Shown piece by piece: positions 52,075-58,105 of a stretch of DNA of 64,000 nucleotides (position 1 is its first letter; every line of letters begins with the position of its first letter). The position numbers and the translations under genes are program-made. The stretch covers positions 1 through 64,000 of IMG/VR virus record IMGVR_UViG_3300013947_000024, one strand, 5' to 3'. Source of the stretch: a virus. Its lineage: Duplodnaviria; Caudoviricetes. Under the pieces are notes generated by a model that did not search any database, was not told where the DNA came from, and was given only the letters and a program-made list of their open reading frames with translations.

Positions 52075-52103
52075 ATAATTATTCAGCAGGAACGCATATT
52101 TAT

Positions 52104-52254
52104 GAGGACATGAAAACTTACGACTTTAGTCGTGAGATGACTCGCTAACACGCGAGCACGCAGGGTCGGGACGACCCGTAGAGCCTGTGGAGACGCCCGC
52201 GTTAGCGGGGTCGATGAAGCAGGAATCTTGCCACTTTAGTGGCGAGAGGTTCAA
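52104..52254 (+). mobile_element. Non-autonomous IS200/IS605 mini-element (PATE-like) carrying a stand-alone omegaRNA
   Basis: Follows TTTAT (52099-52103). LE hairpin CTTACGAC-TTTA-GTCGTGAG 52117-52136; RE hairpin CTTGCCAC-TTTA-GTGGCGAG 52227-52246; ends TTCAA; no ORF. Interrupts a 13-bp inverted repeat. Confidence 0.85.
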
Positions 52255-52302
52255 ACAAAAACCATGCGTTCCTGCTATCAAAATAGATGAGGAGAAAGAC
52301 AT

Positions 52303-52905
52303 ATGGAATATTTTGACGGCGTAGTAGCCGCTAAACTTTTTGGAGGCGGTGGTGGCGGTGGAGAACCCGTAGATGTTAGTGGCAAGCTCGACAAGGTAAC
52401 AACGACAGCTCTCGTCCCTCGTGTATACGGCGTAAAAGAAGATGGTAGCCAGCTGACTTATTTTGCCACTCCGAGCACAGACGCAAATACCATTGTCATG
52501 AGAGACGCCTCTAAGCATATCGCCGTCGAAGACGGTGTTGCTCCCAAACAGGCAGTAAACAAATCGCAGTTAGACAAGAAGCTCGACATTGAAGGCGGAG
52601 ATATTACTGGAGACCTTTCTGTGGCTGGTAATGTCGACATCACCGGGGTAGCAACACACACAGCGGAAGCGATTTTTAATAGTGGGCTTGAATCTGATGG
52701 TCCTGTTAATGTGAATAATTCCCTCGTAAAGATTACGAATGTTACGAAAGACATTGTTACACAGTATAACGCGGACATGATTACCCTTGAAGAGAACGGA
52801 GATGCCAAACAGTATAATTATACATTTCCTCGCTCTTCTGGCGCGCTTGCTGTTACAGCTCATTCAGAGATTATCAACGAAGACACAGCGGAACAAACGG
52901 TTGAT
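52303..52905 (+). CDS. Tail fibre gene, exon 1 (IStron-interrupted)
   Basis: KLDK/GGDITGDLSVAG fibre motifs; last codon GAT ends the TTGAT target site. Confidence 0.85.
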
Positions 52906-53360
52906 TAAGAGCACAACACAAACTTTTGACTTTAGTCATGAGTTAAAGTGTGCAAATAGTTAGCACATAGGGAAACTTGTGTGTAGTGGCGCTTACGGCG
53001 TCCAATATTACTTGAAATGCTGGAAACTCCTAAAGCTATTTGAACCACAACATAATTCATTAAATGGAATAAGTGTGACGGTAACGAAAGTAGAAAGAAT
53101 CAAATAGATGGTGCAGGGTTAAATCCTAAACACTCTTACAAAAAAATGGAGAATCAGCAGGGAAGCTCGAAAGAGAACCCCCAACGACTATTCCTCTTGA
53201 GGGAAGTAGGAGCAAGCGCTCCGAAGTGGGTAAGCCCAAACAGGCAAGCTGTGGGATAAGATATAGTCTGTGCTCATGTGAAAGCATGAGATACCTACCG
53301 CTAAACAATACGGCGGATAAGGATGTGTGAGAGTAGCGACCTCATGCGAACGACAACCTC
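52906..53360 (+). ncRNA. Group I intron ribozyme core (IA-like, with P7.1/P7.2)
   Basis: P AAATGCTGGAAACT 53015-53028; Q AATCAGCAGG 53152-53161; R CCAACGACTA 53181-53190; S AAGATATAGTCT 53258-53269. P7 GACTA/TAGTC; P7.1 TTCCTC/GAGGGAA; P7.2 GGAGC/GCTCC; P9 CTCATG/CATGAG. Confidence 0.92.
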
Positions 53361-53478
53361 TAAGCGACCGATAACCACGGTTATTGTGTCTTCTACAAAA
53401 TTAACAATTGAATATTGGTAACATCACTCTGAAAGCAAGTGTAAAAAAACTTATATAGAAGTAAGAGGAGGTGTTACA

Positions 53479-54585
53479 ATGGAAAAAGCATACAAGTTAA
53501 GAATCTATCCAAACAAACAACAACGGATTCTTTTAGCTAAAACATTTGGATGCGCCAGATTTGTGTATAATCACTATCTCAACAAGAAGATTGATTTATA
53601 CAAAGAGTCTGGCGAATCAATAAGTAATAACGAATGTTCGAGAGATTTAACACTCTTAAAACAGGAGTTAGAATGGCTACAAGAACCTGACAAGTGCGCT
53701 CTTCAAAACGCTCTAAAAGATTTGGATGCTTCGTATAAAAACTTCTTCAAGAATCCATCTCATTTTGGATTCCCAAGGTTTAAGTCGAGGCATGACAATC
53801 ATAGAGCGTATAGAACGAGCTTCTCCAACGGCAACATTGCAATCGCTGGAAATCATATCAAACTTCCTAAACTCGGACAAGTAAAAATCAGAGATAAGTA
53901 TCTTGTTCAAGGAAGAATTTTGAATGTGACAGTATCGCAAGCGCCGAGCGGGAAATATTTCGCCTCTGTTTGTTGTACGGATATTCCGCAAATAGATCTG
54001 CCGAAGACTGGCTCTGCTATCGGAATTGATGTTGGATTAAAGGAATTCTTAATTACAAGCAACGGCGACAAGGTTGCTAATCCAAGATATTTGAGCAAAT
54101 CCTTAGAAAAACTTGCAAGACTTCAAAGAGAGCTTTCGCGAAAACCAAACGGAAGCAATCGGAGAAATAAGGCAAGAATCAAGGTGGCGCGTCAATATGA
54201 AAAGATTAGCAATCAACGAAAAGACTTCTTAAATAAACTCACAACGAACCTTATTAAAGAGAATGACATCATCTGCGTTGAGGATTTACGGGTTGAGAAT
54301 ATGGTTAAGAACCATAAGCTCGCAAGGTCTATTTCAGATGCGTCGTGGGGTGAGTTTAGACGGCAACTTGAATATAAGGCAAGATGGTACGGAAAGAGAA
54401 TTTCTGCGATAGATTCTTTCTTCCCATCAAGTCAGACTTGTAGTTGCTGTGGATTTAAGAATGTAGGGACAAAAGACTTGTCCGTAAGAGAATGGGTGTG
54501 TCCACAATGCAATACGAAGCACGATAGAGACATCAATGCGGCTATCAACATTCTCAACGAAGGATTAAGACTTGTTACTGCATAA
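53479..54585 (+). CDS. tnpB: TnpB RNA-guided endonuclease (IS200/IS605 OrfB)
   Basis: KAYK.RIYP...FGC.RFVYN; RuvC GIDVG / VEDL / [10 protein letters not shown] intact; CSCC...CPQC Zn finger. Confidence 0.96.
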
Positions 54586-54589
54586 ATTG

Positions 54590-54719
54590 TTAATAATGTA
54601 GAATATACAATAACCGCTGGAACGGCGGGGATAGCTCGGTAAATATCCCGACAGTAGTCGGGAGTTCCCGAGAACCCTGCGACTTTAGTCGCAGGAGGTT
54701 CAGTCTTGGAAGATTAAAG
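54590..54719 (+). ncRNA. TnpB omegaRNA (right-end RNA); guide = first ~16 nt of exon 2
   Basis: Hairpins CCGCT-GGA-ACGGCGG, CTCGG/CCGAG, CCCGAC/GTCGGG, RE hairpin, then TCTTGGAAGATTAAAG. 5' boundary approximate. Confidence 0.8.
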
Positions 54720-56017
54720 ACTCGACTTCTTCTGTCTCTATCTATTACGCAGACAACGGGGTACACACTGGCGCCTTGGTACAGAATGGGCACGCAAGCC
54801 TGACATACTCCGATGCGACTAACACCTCCTCTATTATCGTCGGAGATGGTATTGTTTCTCTTTCTTATCAGCCAACAACTGCTGGCGAACAAGCTACCGC
54901 TCTTGTAATCTCCGAAGAGGGCGCGAAGATTAACGGGCAGAAAATCGTCGTTGCTAATGAGATTACAGGCATTCCTTCTCATATCAACATTATTGCTCCC
55001 GAAGGCGCTACAAGTGGCACTCTTGAAACTGTTCAACTCGAAATTCTTCAAGCCAACCTTAGCAACTTTATCGTATTCGCGCATAAGGAATATCACCTTA
55101 ATGCAGACGGTCTCGTAGAAGGGTATCTCACCTATACCTATGGCGGTTATGAAAACAATAAACACATCACGGAATCTATTACTGTTACGGTAAACACAAG
55201 AGCGTGGGTACTTAATAGAGGGCAACTGGTCACTACTACCGATTATGCTAACGGTAGCGTGTCTGGCGTTGTGAATGTTGACGAAGATTTCAGCAAGGGT
55301 CTTCAGGTGTCAAGCACTGGTAATCTTGGCATTTACAGAGCACTTGATACTGATATTTCGTCTCGTACGACCCTTCGTCCTATCACCCCTCTTAATCTTA
55401 ATACGGCTGTTCTTGCGGCTCTTACAGACGCAAACAAGGTAGCGCCTAACGACACGCAGAAAACTGCTTTTAAGACTGCATGGGGTATTACAAGCGCTAA
55501 CGGCACGCGAGTAATCTTTGCCGCTGACGAACCCGCTACTGGAGATTATTCAGAGGGCGATGTGCTTATCAACACCTCAGATGAGTGCTTCTATTGCTTG
55601 CAGAATGGCGCATGGACAAAGCAGGATTCGTTCGGCAAGCCTTCTTGGCATACAACCGCTCCCGCAGATACCTCAAAGGTTCTTCGTACAGAGATCACAT
55701 GGACGAAGGCTATCCAATACAAGAGTGGGTCTCAAGACACGGTTGAATGCCACTTCTTAAGCTCTGGTGATGGCTATGCGAGGTTCGATACCAACGCAAG
55801 CGGAGAGAAACTCTTGCAGGGTTGTACAAACTGGACAGTCAGCGGTTCTTCTAATGGCACGGACGAAGACGGAACAGCCGTAATTATCAACGGAGTTATG
55901 TTCCACGATGTAGATACCGATATTGCGAAGTTTATTGTATACAGATTTTCTGATAGCTCGTCTCTGTTCGGTATGCACTTTGTGCCTACAGACGCTACAT
56001 TCAGATACTTGTACTAA
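54704..56017 (+). CDS. Tail fibre gene, exon 2 (spliced product 638 aa)
   Basis: Open frame SWKIKDSTSS... continuous with the ORF called at 54776; C-terminus paralogous to ORF 40490. Confidence 0.85.
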   Translation, partial: SWKIKDSTSSVSIYYADNGVHTGALVQNGHASLTYSDATNTSSIIVGDGIVSLSYQPTTAGEQATALVISEEGAKINGQKIVVANEITGIPSHINIIAPEGATSGTLETVQLEILQANLSNFIVFAHKEYHLNADGLVEGYLTYTYGGYENNKHITESITVTVNTRAWVLNRGQLVTTTDYANGSVSGVVNVDEDFSKGLQVSSTGNLGIYRALDTDISSRTTLRPITPLNLNTAVLAALTDANKVAPNDTQKTAFKTAWGITSANGTRVIFAADEPATGDYSEGDVLINTSDECFYCLQNGAWTKQDSFGKPSWHTTAPADTSKVLRTEITWTKAIQYKSGSQDTVECHFLSSGDGYARFDTNASGEKLLQGCTNWTVSGSSNGTDEDGTAVIINGVMFHDVDTDIAKFIVYRFSDSSSLFGMHFVPTDATFRYLY

Positions 56018-56122: not shown

Positions 56123-58105
56123 ATGCGCATCAGATTAACAGAAACATACCGTTTACACAAGGATATCGGCGAGAAAGACAATCATGGAAACCAACTGACC
56201 AAAGAACAGAAGATCTTTTTCAAGAATAGCAAGGTTCGCGATCAAGATGGCAGACTTCTTGTATGTTATCACAATACAAACGCGGACTTTCAAACATTTG
56301 ATACGCAGAAACAGGGAAGTCGTTTTACTGGTAATCTTGGCAACGGATTTTATTTCACGCCATATAAAGATCAGGCGGATTATTATGGTGGGAAATATAC
56401 GATGGAGGTATATCTTCTCGCCACCAATCTGTTTGACACCAACAGCCAAGAAGATATGGAAAATTTGCTTAGAAAAAATCAAATTGTGTATGATAAAAAA
56501 GCGGTACGCGATGCTATGCAAAAGGGCATGGCAACAAGAAATATTTTGCAGTCTGTCGCAGACTATCGCACGCACACGGGCAACATCAACGACGATTTTA
56601 TCGAGCTAATCATGCGTGCTGGATATGACGGTGTTGTAAATGGCGTAATAGGCACTAATGAAGAATATATGGTTTTTGAACCAAATCAGATTAAATCCAT
56701 ATCAAACACAAACCCCACTCATTCTGACAATATAAACGAATATTTTGGATCGTTGAAAGAATCCTATCTTAACGAAGACATTGACGGAATGAGAAAGTTC
56801 TATCCCAATATCGAAGACGATGCCTTTATGACGTTCATAGAGCTTGACCCTACATATACGAATGGTTCTACAAACGCAGGAAAATACGCCCGTTGGATTC
56901 TTGGGCTCGCCAACAAGGGAATGGGAAAGATTGAAAATATTTCGCACCTTTCTGACGCTCTTCGTAGATTTGACGAAGTTCGTAACGACCTCATCAACAA
57001 AGACGTTATGAGATACAAGAGCGTACAGGAGCTTGAGGACGCACTTAACGCGCCCGAATCATACGCGGAGAAATCTCATAGACAAGAGGTTCGTGGTAGA
57101 CAACAGGCTCGTAAAGAAGCCGATATTACCAAAGACGCTGATATTGTATATCAGGATGCTACATGGACTGTGTATGTACCAAAAACCTATGCGGCTTCTT
57201 GCAAGCTCGGTCAGGGGTCTAAATGGTGTACAGCAAGTACAGAAAGCGATTATTATTACAATTACTACCTTTCTGCATACCCCGACTCCAAATACTACAT
57301 CGTTATCAATAACTCTAACCCAGATGAGAAATATCAACTCCATTTTGAAAGCGGTCAGTTCATGGATAAAGATGATGAGCGCATTCACGGAGGAATTGAC
57401 GCATTTAAGGAATATAAGGGGCTGTATGAATTCTTGAAGGGATTGCAGGCATCTCTGTTCTTGAATCAAATCGGAGTCTCAGCAGAGGAAAAAGAATACG
57501 AAGTGAAGATTACTCACGCGGATTTAGCAGAAGCGCTTAGCGACAACTATAGTCGCGACGCGCTCGGAGCAGATGCCATTCGCAACATACTGGATGGGAA
57601 TGCGTGGGACTTGTTTGATGGGTTTAGCAATTTACCCAGAGACGAAATACAGTCCGTATACGACTACGAGATTAGCTCTGAAAATCTGCAAAAAATCGAA
57701 GAGCTTGGAGCAACAGAAGAGTCTATCTTTGACGATAGGGATGATGTGTATTATGCCATTGGTGGCGCCCTTGCTGATGCTTTGCTTGACAACGCGGTAT
57801 CCAACATCGAACGATCGGTGGAAAGTGGGATAGAGGAGGCAATGCCAGCATGGGCACATATCGACGATATTGGGTTTGGATACAAGAAGTCCACATTCAC
57901 AGTCGACACACAAACCTTCAAGGATGCTGTTTCAGACATCATGAACAACTATGACACTGATGCAATGGGGTCTTTAGAGGAAGTACTTCAAAATGTCATT
58001 GACAACAATAGCAACGGAATTTACTACGAAGATGACTATGACTACGACAAAGACACATTTAACGCATTGCTCGCTGACAACCTTTCGGAATTAAAACCAC
58101 AGTAA
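56123..58105 (+). CDS. Polyvalent protein: ART-PolyVal-like ADP-ribosyltransferase + WCT-motif (PcfJ-like) domain + acidic tail
   Basis: SKVRD.DG.LL..YHNT, GFYFT, GYDGV, EYMVFEPNQIKS; linker LKESYLNED; VYVPKT..ASC..G.GSKWCTA. Confidence 0.7.
   Translation: MRIRLTETYRLHKDIGEKDNHGNQLTKEQKIFFKNSKVRDQDGRLLVCYHNTNADFQTFDTQKQGSRFTGNLGNGFYFTPYKDQADYYGGKYTMEVYLLATNLFDTNSQEDMENLLRKNQIVYDKKAVRDAMQKGMATRNILQSVADYRTHTGNINDDFIELIMRAGYDGVVNGVIGTNEEYMVFEPNQIKSISNTNPTHSDNINEYFGSLKESYLNEDIDGMRKFYPNIEDDAFMTFIELDPTYTNGSTNAGKYARWILGLANKGMGKIENISHLSDALRRFDEVRNDLINKDVMRYKSVQELEDALNAPESYAEKSHRQEVRGRQQARKEADITKDADIVYQDATWTVYVPKTYAASCKLGQGSKWCTASTESDYYYNYYLSAYPDSKYYIVINNSNPDEKYQLHFESGQFMDKDDERIHGGIDAFKEYKGLYEFLKGLQASLFLNQIGVSAEEKEYEVKITHADLAEALSDNYSRDALGADAIRNILDGNAWDLFDGFSNLPRDEIQSVYDYEISSENLQKIEELGATEESIFDDRDDVYYAIGGALADALLDNAVSNIERSVESGIEEAMPAWAHIDDIGFGYKKSTFTVDTQTFKDAVSDIMNNYDTDAMGSLEEVLQNVIDNNSNGIYYEDDYDYDKDTFNALLADNLSELKPQ

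What the first reader, a model, noticed from the sequence alone, without database searches (positions are those of the whole stretch)
52085..52276. Protein-free 151-bp IS605-type mini-element that is essentially a stand-alone omegaRNA, 650 bp from the IStron
Seen: the element reads TTTAT|GAGGAC...TTCAA, with LE and RE hairpins sharing the TTTA loop of the IStron ends. Its guide rules also fit, with different specificity: GL AAAA selects TTAT, GR GAAT selects TCAA. The interior matches the IStron omegaRNA architecture with compensatory changes (GGGTCG/CGACCC vs CCGCT/GGCGG; CCTG/CAGG vs CTCGG/CCGAG; CCCGC/GCGGG vs CCCGAC/GTCGGG; RE hairpin; AGGTTCA). Excision regenerates a 13-bp hairpin AGCAGGAACGCAT-ATTTAT|ACAAAAACC-ATGCGTTCCTGCT. 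Inference: this is a second, independent IS lineage that lost tnpA and tnpB but kept its guide RNA, a parasite borrowing TnpA/TnpB in trans. The predicted guide (ACAAAAACCATGCGTT) overlaps the downstream arm and would be sequestered by the upstream arm in read-through RNA, a possible switch. It might also load or titrate the neighbouring TnpB and so tune splicing of the gene directly downstream.
Basis: partly seen in the sequence, partly recalled or inferred. Interest (0 to 1): 0.8.

Follow-up and report, generated by a model that had tools for sequence, protein, structure and literature searches.

The report
Gene-less TnpB guide-RNA mini-transposon in phage
The flagged stretch is a 151-base, protein-less miniature of a TnpB "jumping gene" that sits 48 kb away in the same phage; it keeps both transposon ends and the whole guide-RNA scaffold, and elements of this kind are already described.

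Summary
Window 52104-52254 is a 151-bp ORF-less IS200/IS605-type element. It follows a TTTAT target, ends in TCAA, and has left- and right-end hairpins with the same loop as the neighbouring IStron. It sits in the loop of a perfect 13-bp hairpin (arms 52085-52097 and 52264-52276).

Its interior is a complete compact TnpB omegaRNA scaffold. A covariance model built only from 10 unrelated viral contigs hits it at 84 bits (E 3e-19).

That record holds:
- Element B, a TnpB-only element at 100.4-101.8 kb whose omegaRNA is 85/92 identical to the mini-element's.
- Element C, at about 104.4-106.1 kb, with an intact Y1 TnpA plus a TnpB.
- Element D, a TnpA fragment plus a TnpB.

So the likely partners act in trans from the same phage (TnpB-B and TnpA-C), not from the adjacent IStron. 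Another metagenome holds a copy with different flanks and the same TTTAT.

No empty site, RNA evidence or binding evidence could be obtained. PATEs that encode omegaRNAs used in trans were described by Meers et al. 2023, and this scan has already reported such mini-elements in many other phages. Verdict: real, tidy, a new member of a known kind. The idea that it titrates the IStron's TnpB is not supported.

The parts
52085..52097 (+). Upstream arm of the 13-bp target-site hairpin. It is flanking DNA, not part of the element.
   Evidence: Perfect 13-nt inverted repeat with 52264-52276. The arms are absent from the flanks of element B and of the X2 copy.
52099..52103 (+). Target / transposon-adjacent motif TTTAT (core TTAT). 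Insertion is 3' of it.
   Evidence: Sequence. TTTAT also precedes the differently flanked copy in run X2, and ATTAT precedes element B.
52104..52254 (+). The 151-bp ORF-less IS200/IS605 mini-element (PATE).
   Evidence: An identical filled site is in an independent ENA contig.
52113..52136 (+). Left end: putative guide tetranucleotide AAAA (52113-52116) and left-end hairpin (52117-52136, loop TTTA).
   Evidence: I8. 22/25 identical to the left end of element B. The AAAA/TTAT pairing parallels AAAG/TTAC of IS608 (PMC3201880).
52141..52156 (+). Small 5-bp hairpin at the junction between left-end and right-end material. It has no counterpart in element B.
   Evidence: Folds; alignment. Contigs of run X2 align across it.
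52158..52225 (+). Core of the omegaRNA scaffold (stem 1, stem 2, inner hairpin); RAGATH-18-like.
   Evidence: Covariance model from 10 unrelated viral loci: 84.2 bits, E 2.6e-19. 9 of 18 pairs show compensatory changes. Rfam RAGATH-18 scores 27.5 bits, below its cut-off of 44.9. 85/92 identical to the element B omegaRNA.
52223..52254 (+). Right end: GAAT (52223-52226), right-end hairpin (52227-52246, loop TTTA), and terminal GGTTCAA with cleavage motif TCAA (52251-52254).
   Evidence: I4. Element B ends in the same TTCAA. TCAA is also the right cleavage site of IS608.
52255..52274 (+). Predicted guide (16-20 nt of flanking DNA). Its 3' part overlaps the downstream hairpin arm.
   Evidence: Inferred from its position next to the scaffold, as for all TnpB omegaRNAs. 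There is no second match in the record. It is paired with 52085-52097 in the predicted read-through RNA.
52264..52276 (+). Downstream arm of the target-site hairpin.
   Evidence: I1.

Best explanation
[quoted passage not shown] It is a 151-bp, protein-less derivative of an IS200/IS605-family TnpB element of the type present as element B at 100,422-101,807 of the same phage record.

It consists of about 57 nt of left end (guide tetranucleotide, hairpin and a short junction hairpin) fused to about 94 nt of right end. That right end is the entire omegaRNA scaffold, which in this family lies wholly downstream of the tnpB stop codon.

Shown: the anatomy, the kinship to B, the structural conservation of the RNA, the presence of a catalytically intact-looking TnpB-B and of one full Y1 TnpA (element C) in the same genome, and a differently flanked copy elsewhere.

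Inferred:
1. It was inserted by a Y1 TnpA into single-stranded DNA, 3' of TTTAT exposed in the loop of a 13-bp intergenic hairpin.
2. It has no promoter of its own, so it is transcribed by read-through from the co-oriented upstream structural gene.
3. TnpB-B cuts out the omegaRNA 5' end and binds the scaffold.
4. The complex, guided by the 16-20 nt to the right of the element, cuts genomes that carry the uninterrupted site (TTTAT followed by the guide match). These would be excision products or co-infecting relatives. Repair from a filled copy then restores or spreads the element.
For: - BLAST of the element against its own record finds a second locus, 93% identical over 94 nt. That locus lies directly after a 380-aa tnpB.
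- The alignment gives 85/92 identity for the scaffold and 22/25 for the left end.
- The 7 differences leave every stem intact. Two of them are a compensatory G-C to A-T change in the right-end hairpin, and three lie in a loop.
- TnpB-B matches ISDra2 TnpB at E 9e-67 and keeps the three RuvC acidic residues.
- An RNA model built without any sequence of this genome scores 84 bits on the element and 86 bits on B.
- 11 of the 13 viral loci that share the core follow a tnpB gene.
- A Y1 TnpA is present at 104,499-104,867 (118 bits).
- All ends share the hairpin loop TTTA closed by a C-G pair.
- Contigs of run X2 align over 52124-52255 with unrelated flanks on both sides and again TTTAT on the left.
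- TnpB-B has about 30 close cluster relatives (88-99% identity) on many contigs, so this IS type is common in that habitat.
- Literature: PATEs 'often encode omegaRNAs' that TnpB acts on in trans (PMC10055086); TnpB processes read-through RNA into omegaRNA (PMC10278001, abstract).
Against: - No empty site was found in any collection.
- No RNA run holds the locus, so transcription and processing are unshown.
- Binding of this RNA by TnpB-B, the TAM of TnpB-B, and recognition of these ends by TnpA-C are all untested.
- The left end differs from B's in the 16 nt before the hairpin, including the putative guide tetranucleotide (AAAA against ATGA). The resident copy of B is therefore a cousin, not the direct parent.
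- The Rfam RAGATH-18 score is below threshold.
- Only one copy is present in this genome.
Confidence: 0.8

Rival explanations
1. Inert fossil. A full-length B-type element once sat here and lost its interior by deletion in place. The remnant is neither mobile nor used as a guide RNA.
For: There is a single copy in this record. It has no promoter of its own. No empty site was found. The same filled site occurs in a second sample. The left end differs from B's.
Against: Both ends, both guide/cleavage motifs and every RNA stem are intact, with compensatory rather than random differences from B. Contigs in run X2 span the mini-specific junction and have other flanks. That pattern is expected for a mini-element that moves as such.
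Confidence: 0.12
2. Domesticated regulator. The structured RNA acts in cis on the tail-fibre gene 49 nt downstream, or soaks up the neighbouring IStron TnpB-A and so tunes IStron splicing.
For: It lies in the 5' leader of the IStron-bearing gene and has the same orientation. TnpB binding represses IStron splicing in the Clostridium botulinum system (10.1101/2023.11.20.567912). The architecture is shared with omegaRNA-A.
Against: The conserved single-stranded motifs of its RNA class are absent from omegaRNA-A, and the class model does not detect A at E up to 10. TnpB-A is only 34% identical to TnpB-B. A matching TnpB exists elsewhere in the genome. There is no conservation evidence for a host-type function.
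Confidence: 0.05
3. The unit is the whole 192 bp (52085-52276): a MITE of another transposon class, with the 13-bp repeats as its terminal inverted repeats.
For: Perfect 13-bp inverted repeats bracket the stretch.
Against: The repeats do not accompany element B or the X2 copy, whose flanks differ right outside TTTAT and TTCAA. There is no target-site duplication outside the repeats. The repeat occurs nowhere else in the record (for the right arm region).
Confidence: 0.02

Closest known systems
PATEs (palindrome-associated transposable elements) of IS200/IS605 that encode omegaRNAs, as in Geobacillus stearothermophilus (Meers et al. 2023, PMC10055086), and the ORF-less PATE with IStron ends in Clostridioides difficile (10.1101/2023.11.20.567912, fig. 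S3 legend)
   Same: It has no ORF, left- and right-end subterminal hairpins, insertion 3' of a short motif and no target duplication. It carries an omegaRNA that must be used by a TnpB encoded in another element, and it needs TnpA supplied in trans.
   Different: It resides in a phage genome. It is very small (151 bp) because the scaffold is only about 94 nt. It was inserted in the loop of a long hairpin, so the guide overlaps one arm. It has no promoter of its own.
IS608 / ISDra2 (IS200/IS605 family, Y1 TnpA, peel-and-paste single-strand transposition)
   Same: The layout is the same: cleavage site, guide tetranucleotide 5' of the hairpin foot, and right end closing in TCAA. TnpB-B is a close sequence relative of ISDra2 TnpB.
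   Different: The target is TTTAT/TTAT rather than TTAC (IS608) or TTGAT (ISDra2 and the neighbouring IStron). Spacings are shorter: 13 nt at the left end and 4 nt at the right end, against 19 and 10 in IS608.
RAGATH-18-derived reRNA of IS607-type TnpB (Ren et al. 2024, PMC11061315)
   Same: The conserved core motifs are shared. The guide RNA lies entirely downstream of the tnpB coding sequence.
   Different: The score is below the Rfam threshold (27.5 against 44.9 bits). The inner region is 17 nt instead of 46, and the scaffold is about 94 nt instead of 187. The ends are IS605-type hairpins and the TAM is not AGGAG. TnpB-B is nearer to ISDra2 TnpB (E 9e-67) than to the 384-aa chain 8iaz (E 1e-34).
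Guide-RNA-only mini-elements reported earlier by this scan in other phage genomes (for example e1-5340334, e1-5709394, e1-5848975, e1-5747154)
   Same: Each is a protein-less miniature of the phage's own TnpB element that keeps the omegaRNA scaffold, and each was judged PATE-like.
   Different: Those notes mostly describe an own promoter. This one has none and sits in a hairpin loop. Those notes were not re-tested here.

Membership tests
IS200/IS605 PATE | Subterminal imperfect hairpins at both ends, with no terminal inverted repeats belonging to the element | tested here: met
   Hairpins at 52117-52136 and 52227-52246. The 13-bp outer repeat belongs to the target, not the element.
IS200/IS605 PATE | Insertion 3' of a conserved 4-5 nt motif, without target-site duplication | tested here: met
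   TTTAT precedes this copy and the X2 copy; ATTAT precedes element B. The flanks are not duplicated.
IS200/IS605 PATE | Guide tetranucleotides 5' of each hairpin foot that match the cleavage sites | tested here: inconclusive
   AAAA with TTAT follows the IS608 AAAG/TTAC pattern, and the right cleavage site is TCAA as in IS608. Element B's tetranucleotide (ATGA) does not fit the same rule, and no cleavage was assayed.
IS200/IS605 PATE | No protein-coding capacity | tested here: met
   No ORF lies within the 151 bp. Only spurious ORFs cross it.
IS200/IS605 PATE | Mobility: several copies at different sites, and/or empty sites | tested here: inconclusive
   Differently flanked copy or copies exist in run X2. 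There is one copy in this record. No empty site was found.
IS200/IS605 PATE | A Y1 TnpA available in trans that recognises its ends | tested here: inconclusive
   A full Y1_Tnp is at 104,499-104,867, and the hairpin loop is shared. Recognition was not tested.
TnpB omegaRNA | Conserved structured scaffold at the right end, next to tnpB in full-length relatives, ending at the transposon boundary | tested here: met
   The same scaffold follows tnpB-B. 11 of 13 viral loci with the core follow a tnpB. Covariation is seen in 9 of 18 pairs. The independent model scores 84 bits.
TnpB omegaRNA | Expressed, processed and bound by TnpB; directs TAM-dependent cleavage | not testable with these tools
   No RNA run is listed. 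No RNA-protein prediction tool was available.
Rfam RAGATH-18 (RF03064) | Score at or above the curated gathering threshold | tested here: not met
   27.5 bits against 44.9. Related viral loci also fall below threshold.
IStron | Group I intron joined to the IS | tested here: not met
   The only group I intron match is at 52916-53290, in the neighbouring element.

The most novel reading that the evidence does not exclude
The mini-element works as a cheap second 'address' for the phage's TnpB-B, in effect a phage-against-phage gene drive placed just upstream of the tail-fibre gene. Co-infecting relatives that lack it would be cut at the intact hairpin and repaired from this phage, dragging the adjacent tail-fibre region along (localized marker exclusion). 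The target hairpin would gate the guide until TnpB has processed the read-through RNA.
Probability: 0.12. Interest if true: 0.6.

Novelty: new member of a known kind. Interest (0 to 1): 0.3.

Why it matters
It is a clean, minimal natural example of the modularity of OMEGA systems: about 150 bp is enough to carry transposon ends plus a complete guide-RNA scaffold that gives a nuclease encoded elsewhere a new target. The roughly 94-nt scaffold, lying wholly outside the coding sequence, could interest people who trim TnpB guide RNAs. The setting is also of note. One phage carries four TnpB elements, one mini-element and one further reduced remnant, which adds to the picture of phage genomes as arenas for RNA-guided homing. 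It does not open a new question, because the class and its logic are published and this scan has met it repeatedly.

Tried and rejected
- Rfam at gathering thresholds found nothing in the window.
- BLAST of the locus and of the element against 50,697 phage records gave only a 70-nt match of the IStron's 5' end to a Clostridioides phage, plus chance hits.
- Exact or degenerate pattern scans found nothing useful. The left flank plus TTTAT in viral contigs gave 0. The mini-specific junction in viral contigs gave 0. A B-type scaffold pattern and a 'left end close to scaffold' pattern in metagenome contigs gave 0 and 0. A scaffold 20-mer in GTDB genomes gave one chance match inside a coding region. 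A left-end pattern in viral contigs gave four chance matches with no hairpin.
- The search for related loci with the upstream 458-aa protein, alone and as an alignment, found no relative in viral contigs.
- The look-up of encoding contigs gave one independent contig with the identical filled site.
- No RNA holder is listed for the locus. The two DNA runs laid are contigs with small shares, and none bridges the site in the relative's own context.
- No off-target of the guide exists in the record.
- An internal promoter was looked for and not found.
- The 8-nt and 10-nt complementarities inside the element (I2 and I7) are near chance level and were not pursued.

Full report
**What is there.**
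- The window is the first 64 kb of a 129,560-bp IMG/VR virus record.
- At 52099-52103 the sequence reads TTTAT. A 151-bp element runs from 52104 to 52254 and ends in TTCAA.
- It carries two 8-bp hairpins, each with one T.G pair and the loop TTTA, at 52117-52136 and 52227-52246. The ends of the neighbouring IStron (hairpins at 52927 and 54680) have the same loop.
- The four bases 5' of the hairpin feet are AAAA and GAAT.
- A perfect 13-nt inverted repeat brackets the element, at 52085-52097 and 52264-52276. Taking the element out leaves a 13-bp stem with a 15-nt loop that contains TTTAT.
- The whole record holds only four other perfect hairpins of 11 bp or more, so this hairpin is not background.
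- No ORF fits inside the element, and no sigma-70-like promoter was scored in it.

**What the interior is.**
- Rfam gives a sub-threshold hit to RAGATH-18 at 52184-52225 (27.5 bits, cut-off 44.9). RAGATH-18 is the core of the guide RNA of a group of TnpB nucleases, and in that group the guide RNA lies entirely downstream of the coding sequence (PMC11061315).
- A pattern taken from the conserved core found 13 viral contigs. In 11 of them the motif lies just after a tnpB gene.
- An alignment of these loci with the element gives a consensus of 18 pairs, 9 of which show compensatory changes.
- A covariance model built only from the 10 distinct foreign loci scores the element at 84.2 bits (E 2.6e-19). 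It does not detect the IStron's own omegaRNA.
- Single-sequence folds show the same three-part architecture for the element and for the omegaRNAs of all four TnpB elements of this phage.

Searching the whole record with the element finds a second locus, 93% identical over 94 nt, at 101,714-101,807.
- *Element B.* That locus is the 3' end of a TnpB-only element (100,422-101,807; tnpB 100,558-101,700). Its scaffold starts 14 nt after the stop codon and ends in the same TTCAA. The left ends match 22/25 around the hairpin. Seven differences separate the two 92-nt scaffolds. Three lie in a hairpin loop, two are a compensatory pair in the right-end hairpin, and none opens a stem.
- *TnpB-B.* It has the three TnpB Pfam domains. 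It matches ISDra2 TnpB at E 9e-67 and keeps the RuvC D, E and D residues.
- *Elements C and D.* Two further TnpB genes lie at about 104.9-106.0 kb (C) and 116.4-117.5 kb (D).
- *TnpA.* The only complete Y1 transposase is at 104,499-104,867, in element C. Element D carries a TnpA fragment.
- All of these ends share the TTTA hairpin loop closed by a C-G pair.
- The mini-element therefore has a matching nuclease and a candidate transposase on the same phage.

**Evidence on mobility.**
- An independent ENA assembly carries the identical filled site.
- In run X2, contigs align over 52124-52255, which includes the junction peculiar to the mini-element. Their flanks are unrelated on both sides, and the left flank again ends in TTTAT at the same distance from the hairpin. 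This indicates at least one more copy at another site.
- No empty site was found in viral, metagenome or genome collections.
- The phage has no close relative in IMG/VR or in the phage record collection.
- No RNA run holds the locus.

**How it most likely works.**
- The layout follows IS608. There, a tetranucleotide 5' of each hairpin foot pairs with the cleavage site: AAAG with TTAC on the left, and TCAA as the cleavage site on the right (PMC3201880). Here AAAA would select TTAT, and the right cleavage site is again TCAA. This is consistent, but it was not assayed, and element B's own tetranucleotide does not fit the simple rule.
- I infer that a Y1 TnpA inserted the element into single-stranded DNA at the TTTAT exposed in the hairpin loop.
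- Because the element has no promoter and is co-oriented with both neighbouring genes, it should be transcribed by read-through.
- TnpB-B would then process and bind the scaffold, as shown for other TnpBs (PMC10278001). Using the 16-20 nt to the right of the element as guide, it would cut any genome with the uninterrupted site and so favour retention or spread of the element (the mechanism of PMC10055086).
- In the predicted read-through RNA, the 13-bp flank helix closes the whole element and pairs the 3' part of the guide (z -9.1). Whether this matters after processing is unknown.

**Rivals.**
- *In-place deletion fossil.* This remains possible (about 0.12). It is disfavoured by the intact ends, by the compensatory pattern of differences from B, and by the differently flanked X2 copy.
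- *Regulator of the tail-fibre gene or sponge for the IStron's TnpB-A.* I found no support for this. The RNA classes differ and the proteins are 34% identical.
- *A 192-bp MITE with 13-bp terminal repeats.* This is contradicted by the flanks of element B and of the X2 copy.

**Comparison with the known, and verdict.**
- Meers et al. state that PATEs often encode omegaRNAs that must be acted on in trans by TnpB from other elements.
- An ORF-less PATE with IStron ends is shown for Clostridioides difficile.
- This scan has already followed up similar guide-only mini-elements in many other phage genomes. Another note flags a still more reduced omegaRNA-like remnant at about 78.9 kb of this same record, which I saw.
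- The finding is thus real and well formed, but it is a new member of a known kind.
- Its particular features are the very small size, the compact RAGATH-18-like scaffold in an IS605-type (hairpin-ended) element, the insertion into a hairpin loop, and its company: four TnpB elements in one phage.

Noticed in passing
G000 100,422-101,807 (outside the window; L003:3423-4808): Element B is a TnpB-only IS605-type element with a promoter-like stretch before tnpB. It is the closest relative of the mini-element. It has no group I intron.
   Followed up: yes
G000 about 101,830-102,063 (L003:4830-5063): Directly 3' of element B lies only the C-terminal ~90 aa of an N6/N4 DNA-methylase-like frame. It has no start codon, and no N-terminal half lies upstream of B's left end. 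Joining the flanks does not restore a gene.
   Followed up: partly
G000 about 104,400-106,124 and 116,200-117,646 (L004): Element C carries a full Y1 tnpA plus tnpB. Element D carries a tnpA fragment plus tnpB. Both have longer omegaRNAs of the same architecture. C appears to lie just inside the start of an ORF.
   Followed up: partly
G000 about 78,870-78,990 (L025): A further stand-alone, much reduced omegaRNA-like stretch follows a tail gene. It has stem 1 and the core motifs but lacks the inner hairpin and any left end, and a terminator comes after it. Scan note e1-5950449 also flags it.
   Followed up: partly
window 52906-54703: The TnpB IStron in the tail-fibre-like gene: group I intron at 56 bits, preceded by TTGAT. 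Joining 52905 to 54704 keeps the frame of ORFs 52303-52908 and 54776-56017.
   Followed up: partly
whole record: All five IS605-type insertions and the remnant lie on the + strand, the strand of the surrounding genes.
   Followed up: no
window 52143-52152 / 52198-52207 and 52218-52225 / 52269-52276: Two short complementarities lie within the element (I2 and I7). The junction hairpin loop is complementary to the inner omegaRNA hairpin (9 of 10). The conserved omegaRNA 8-mer is complementary to the downstream flank arm. Both are near chance level.
   Followed up: no
window 56123-58105: A 660-aa ORF with an ART-PolyVal ADP-ribosyltransferase domain (E 1e-21) lies just after the tail-fibre-like gene.
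   Followed up: no
L016:4191-4350 and L017:474-631 (other viral contigs): The same omegaRNA core occurs without an upstream tnpB in these two contigs, so they may be further stand-alone copies.
   Followed up: no
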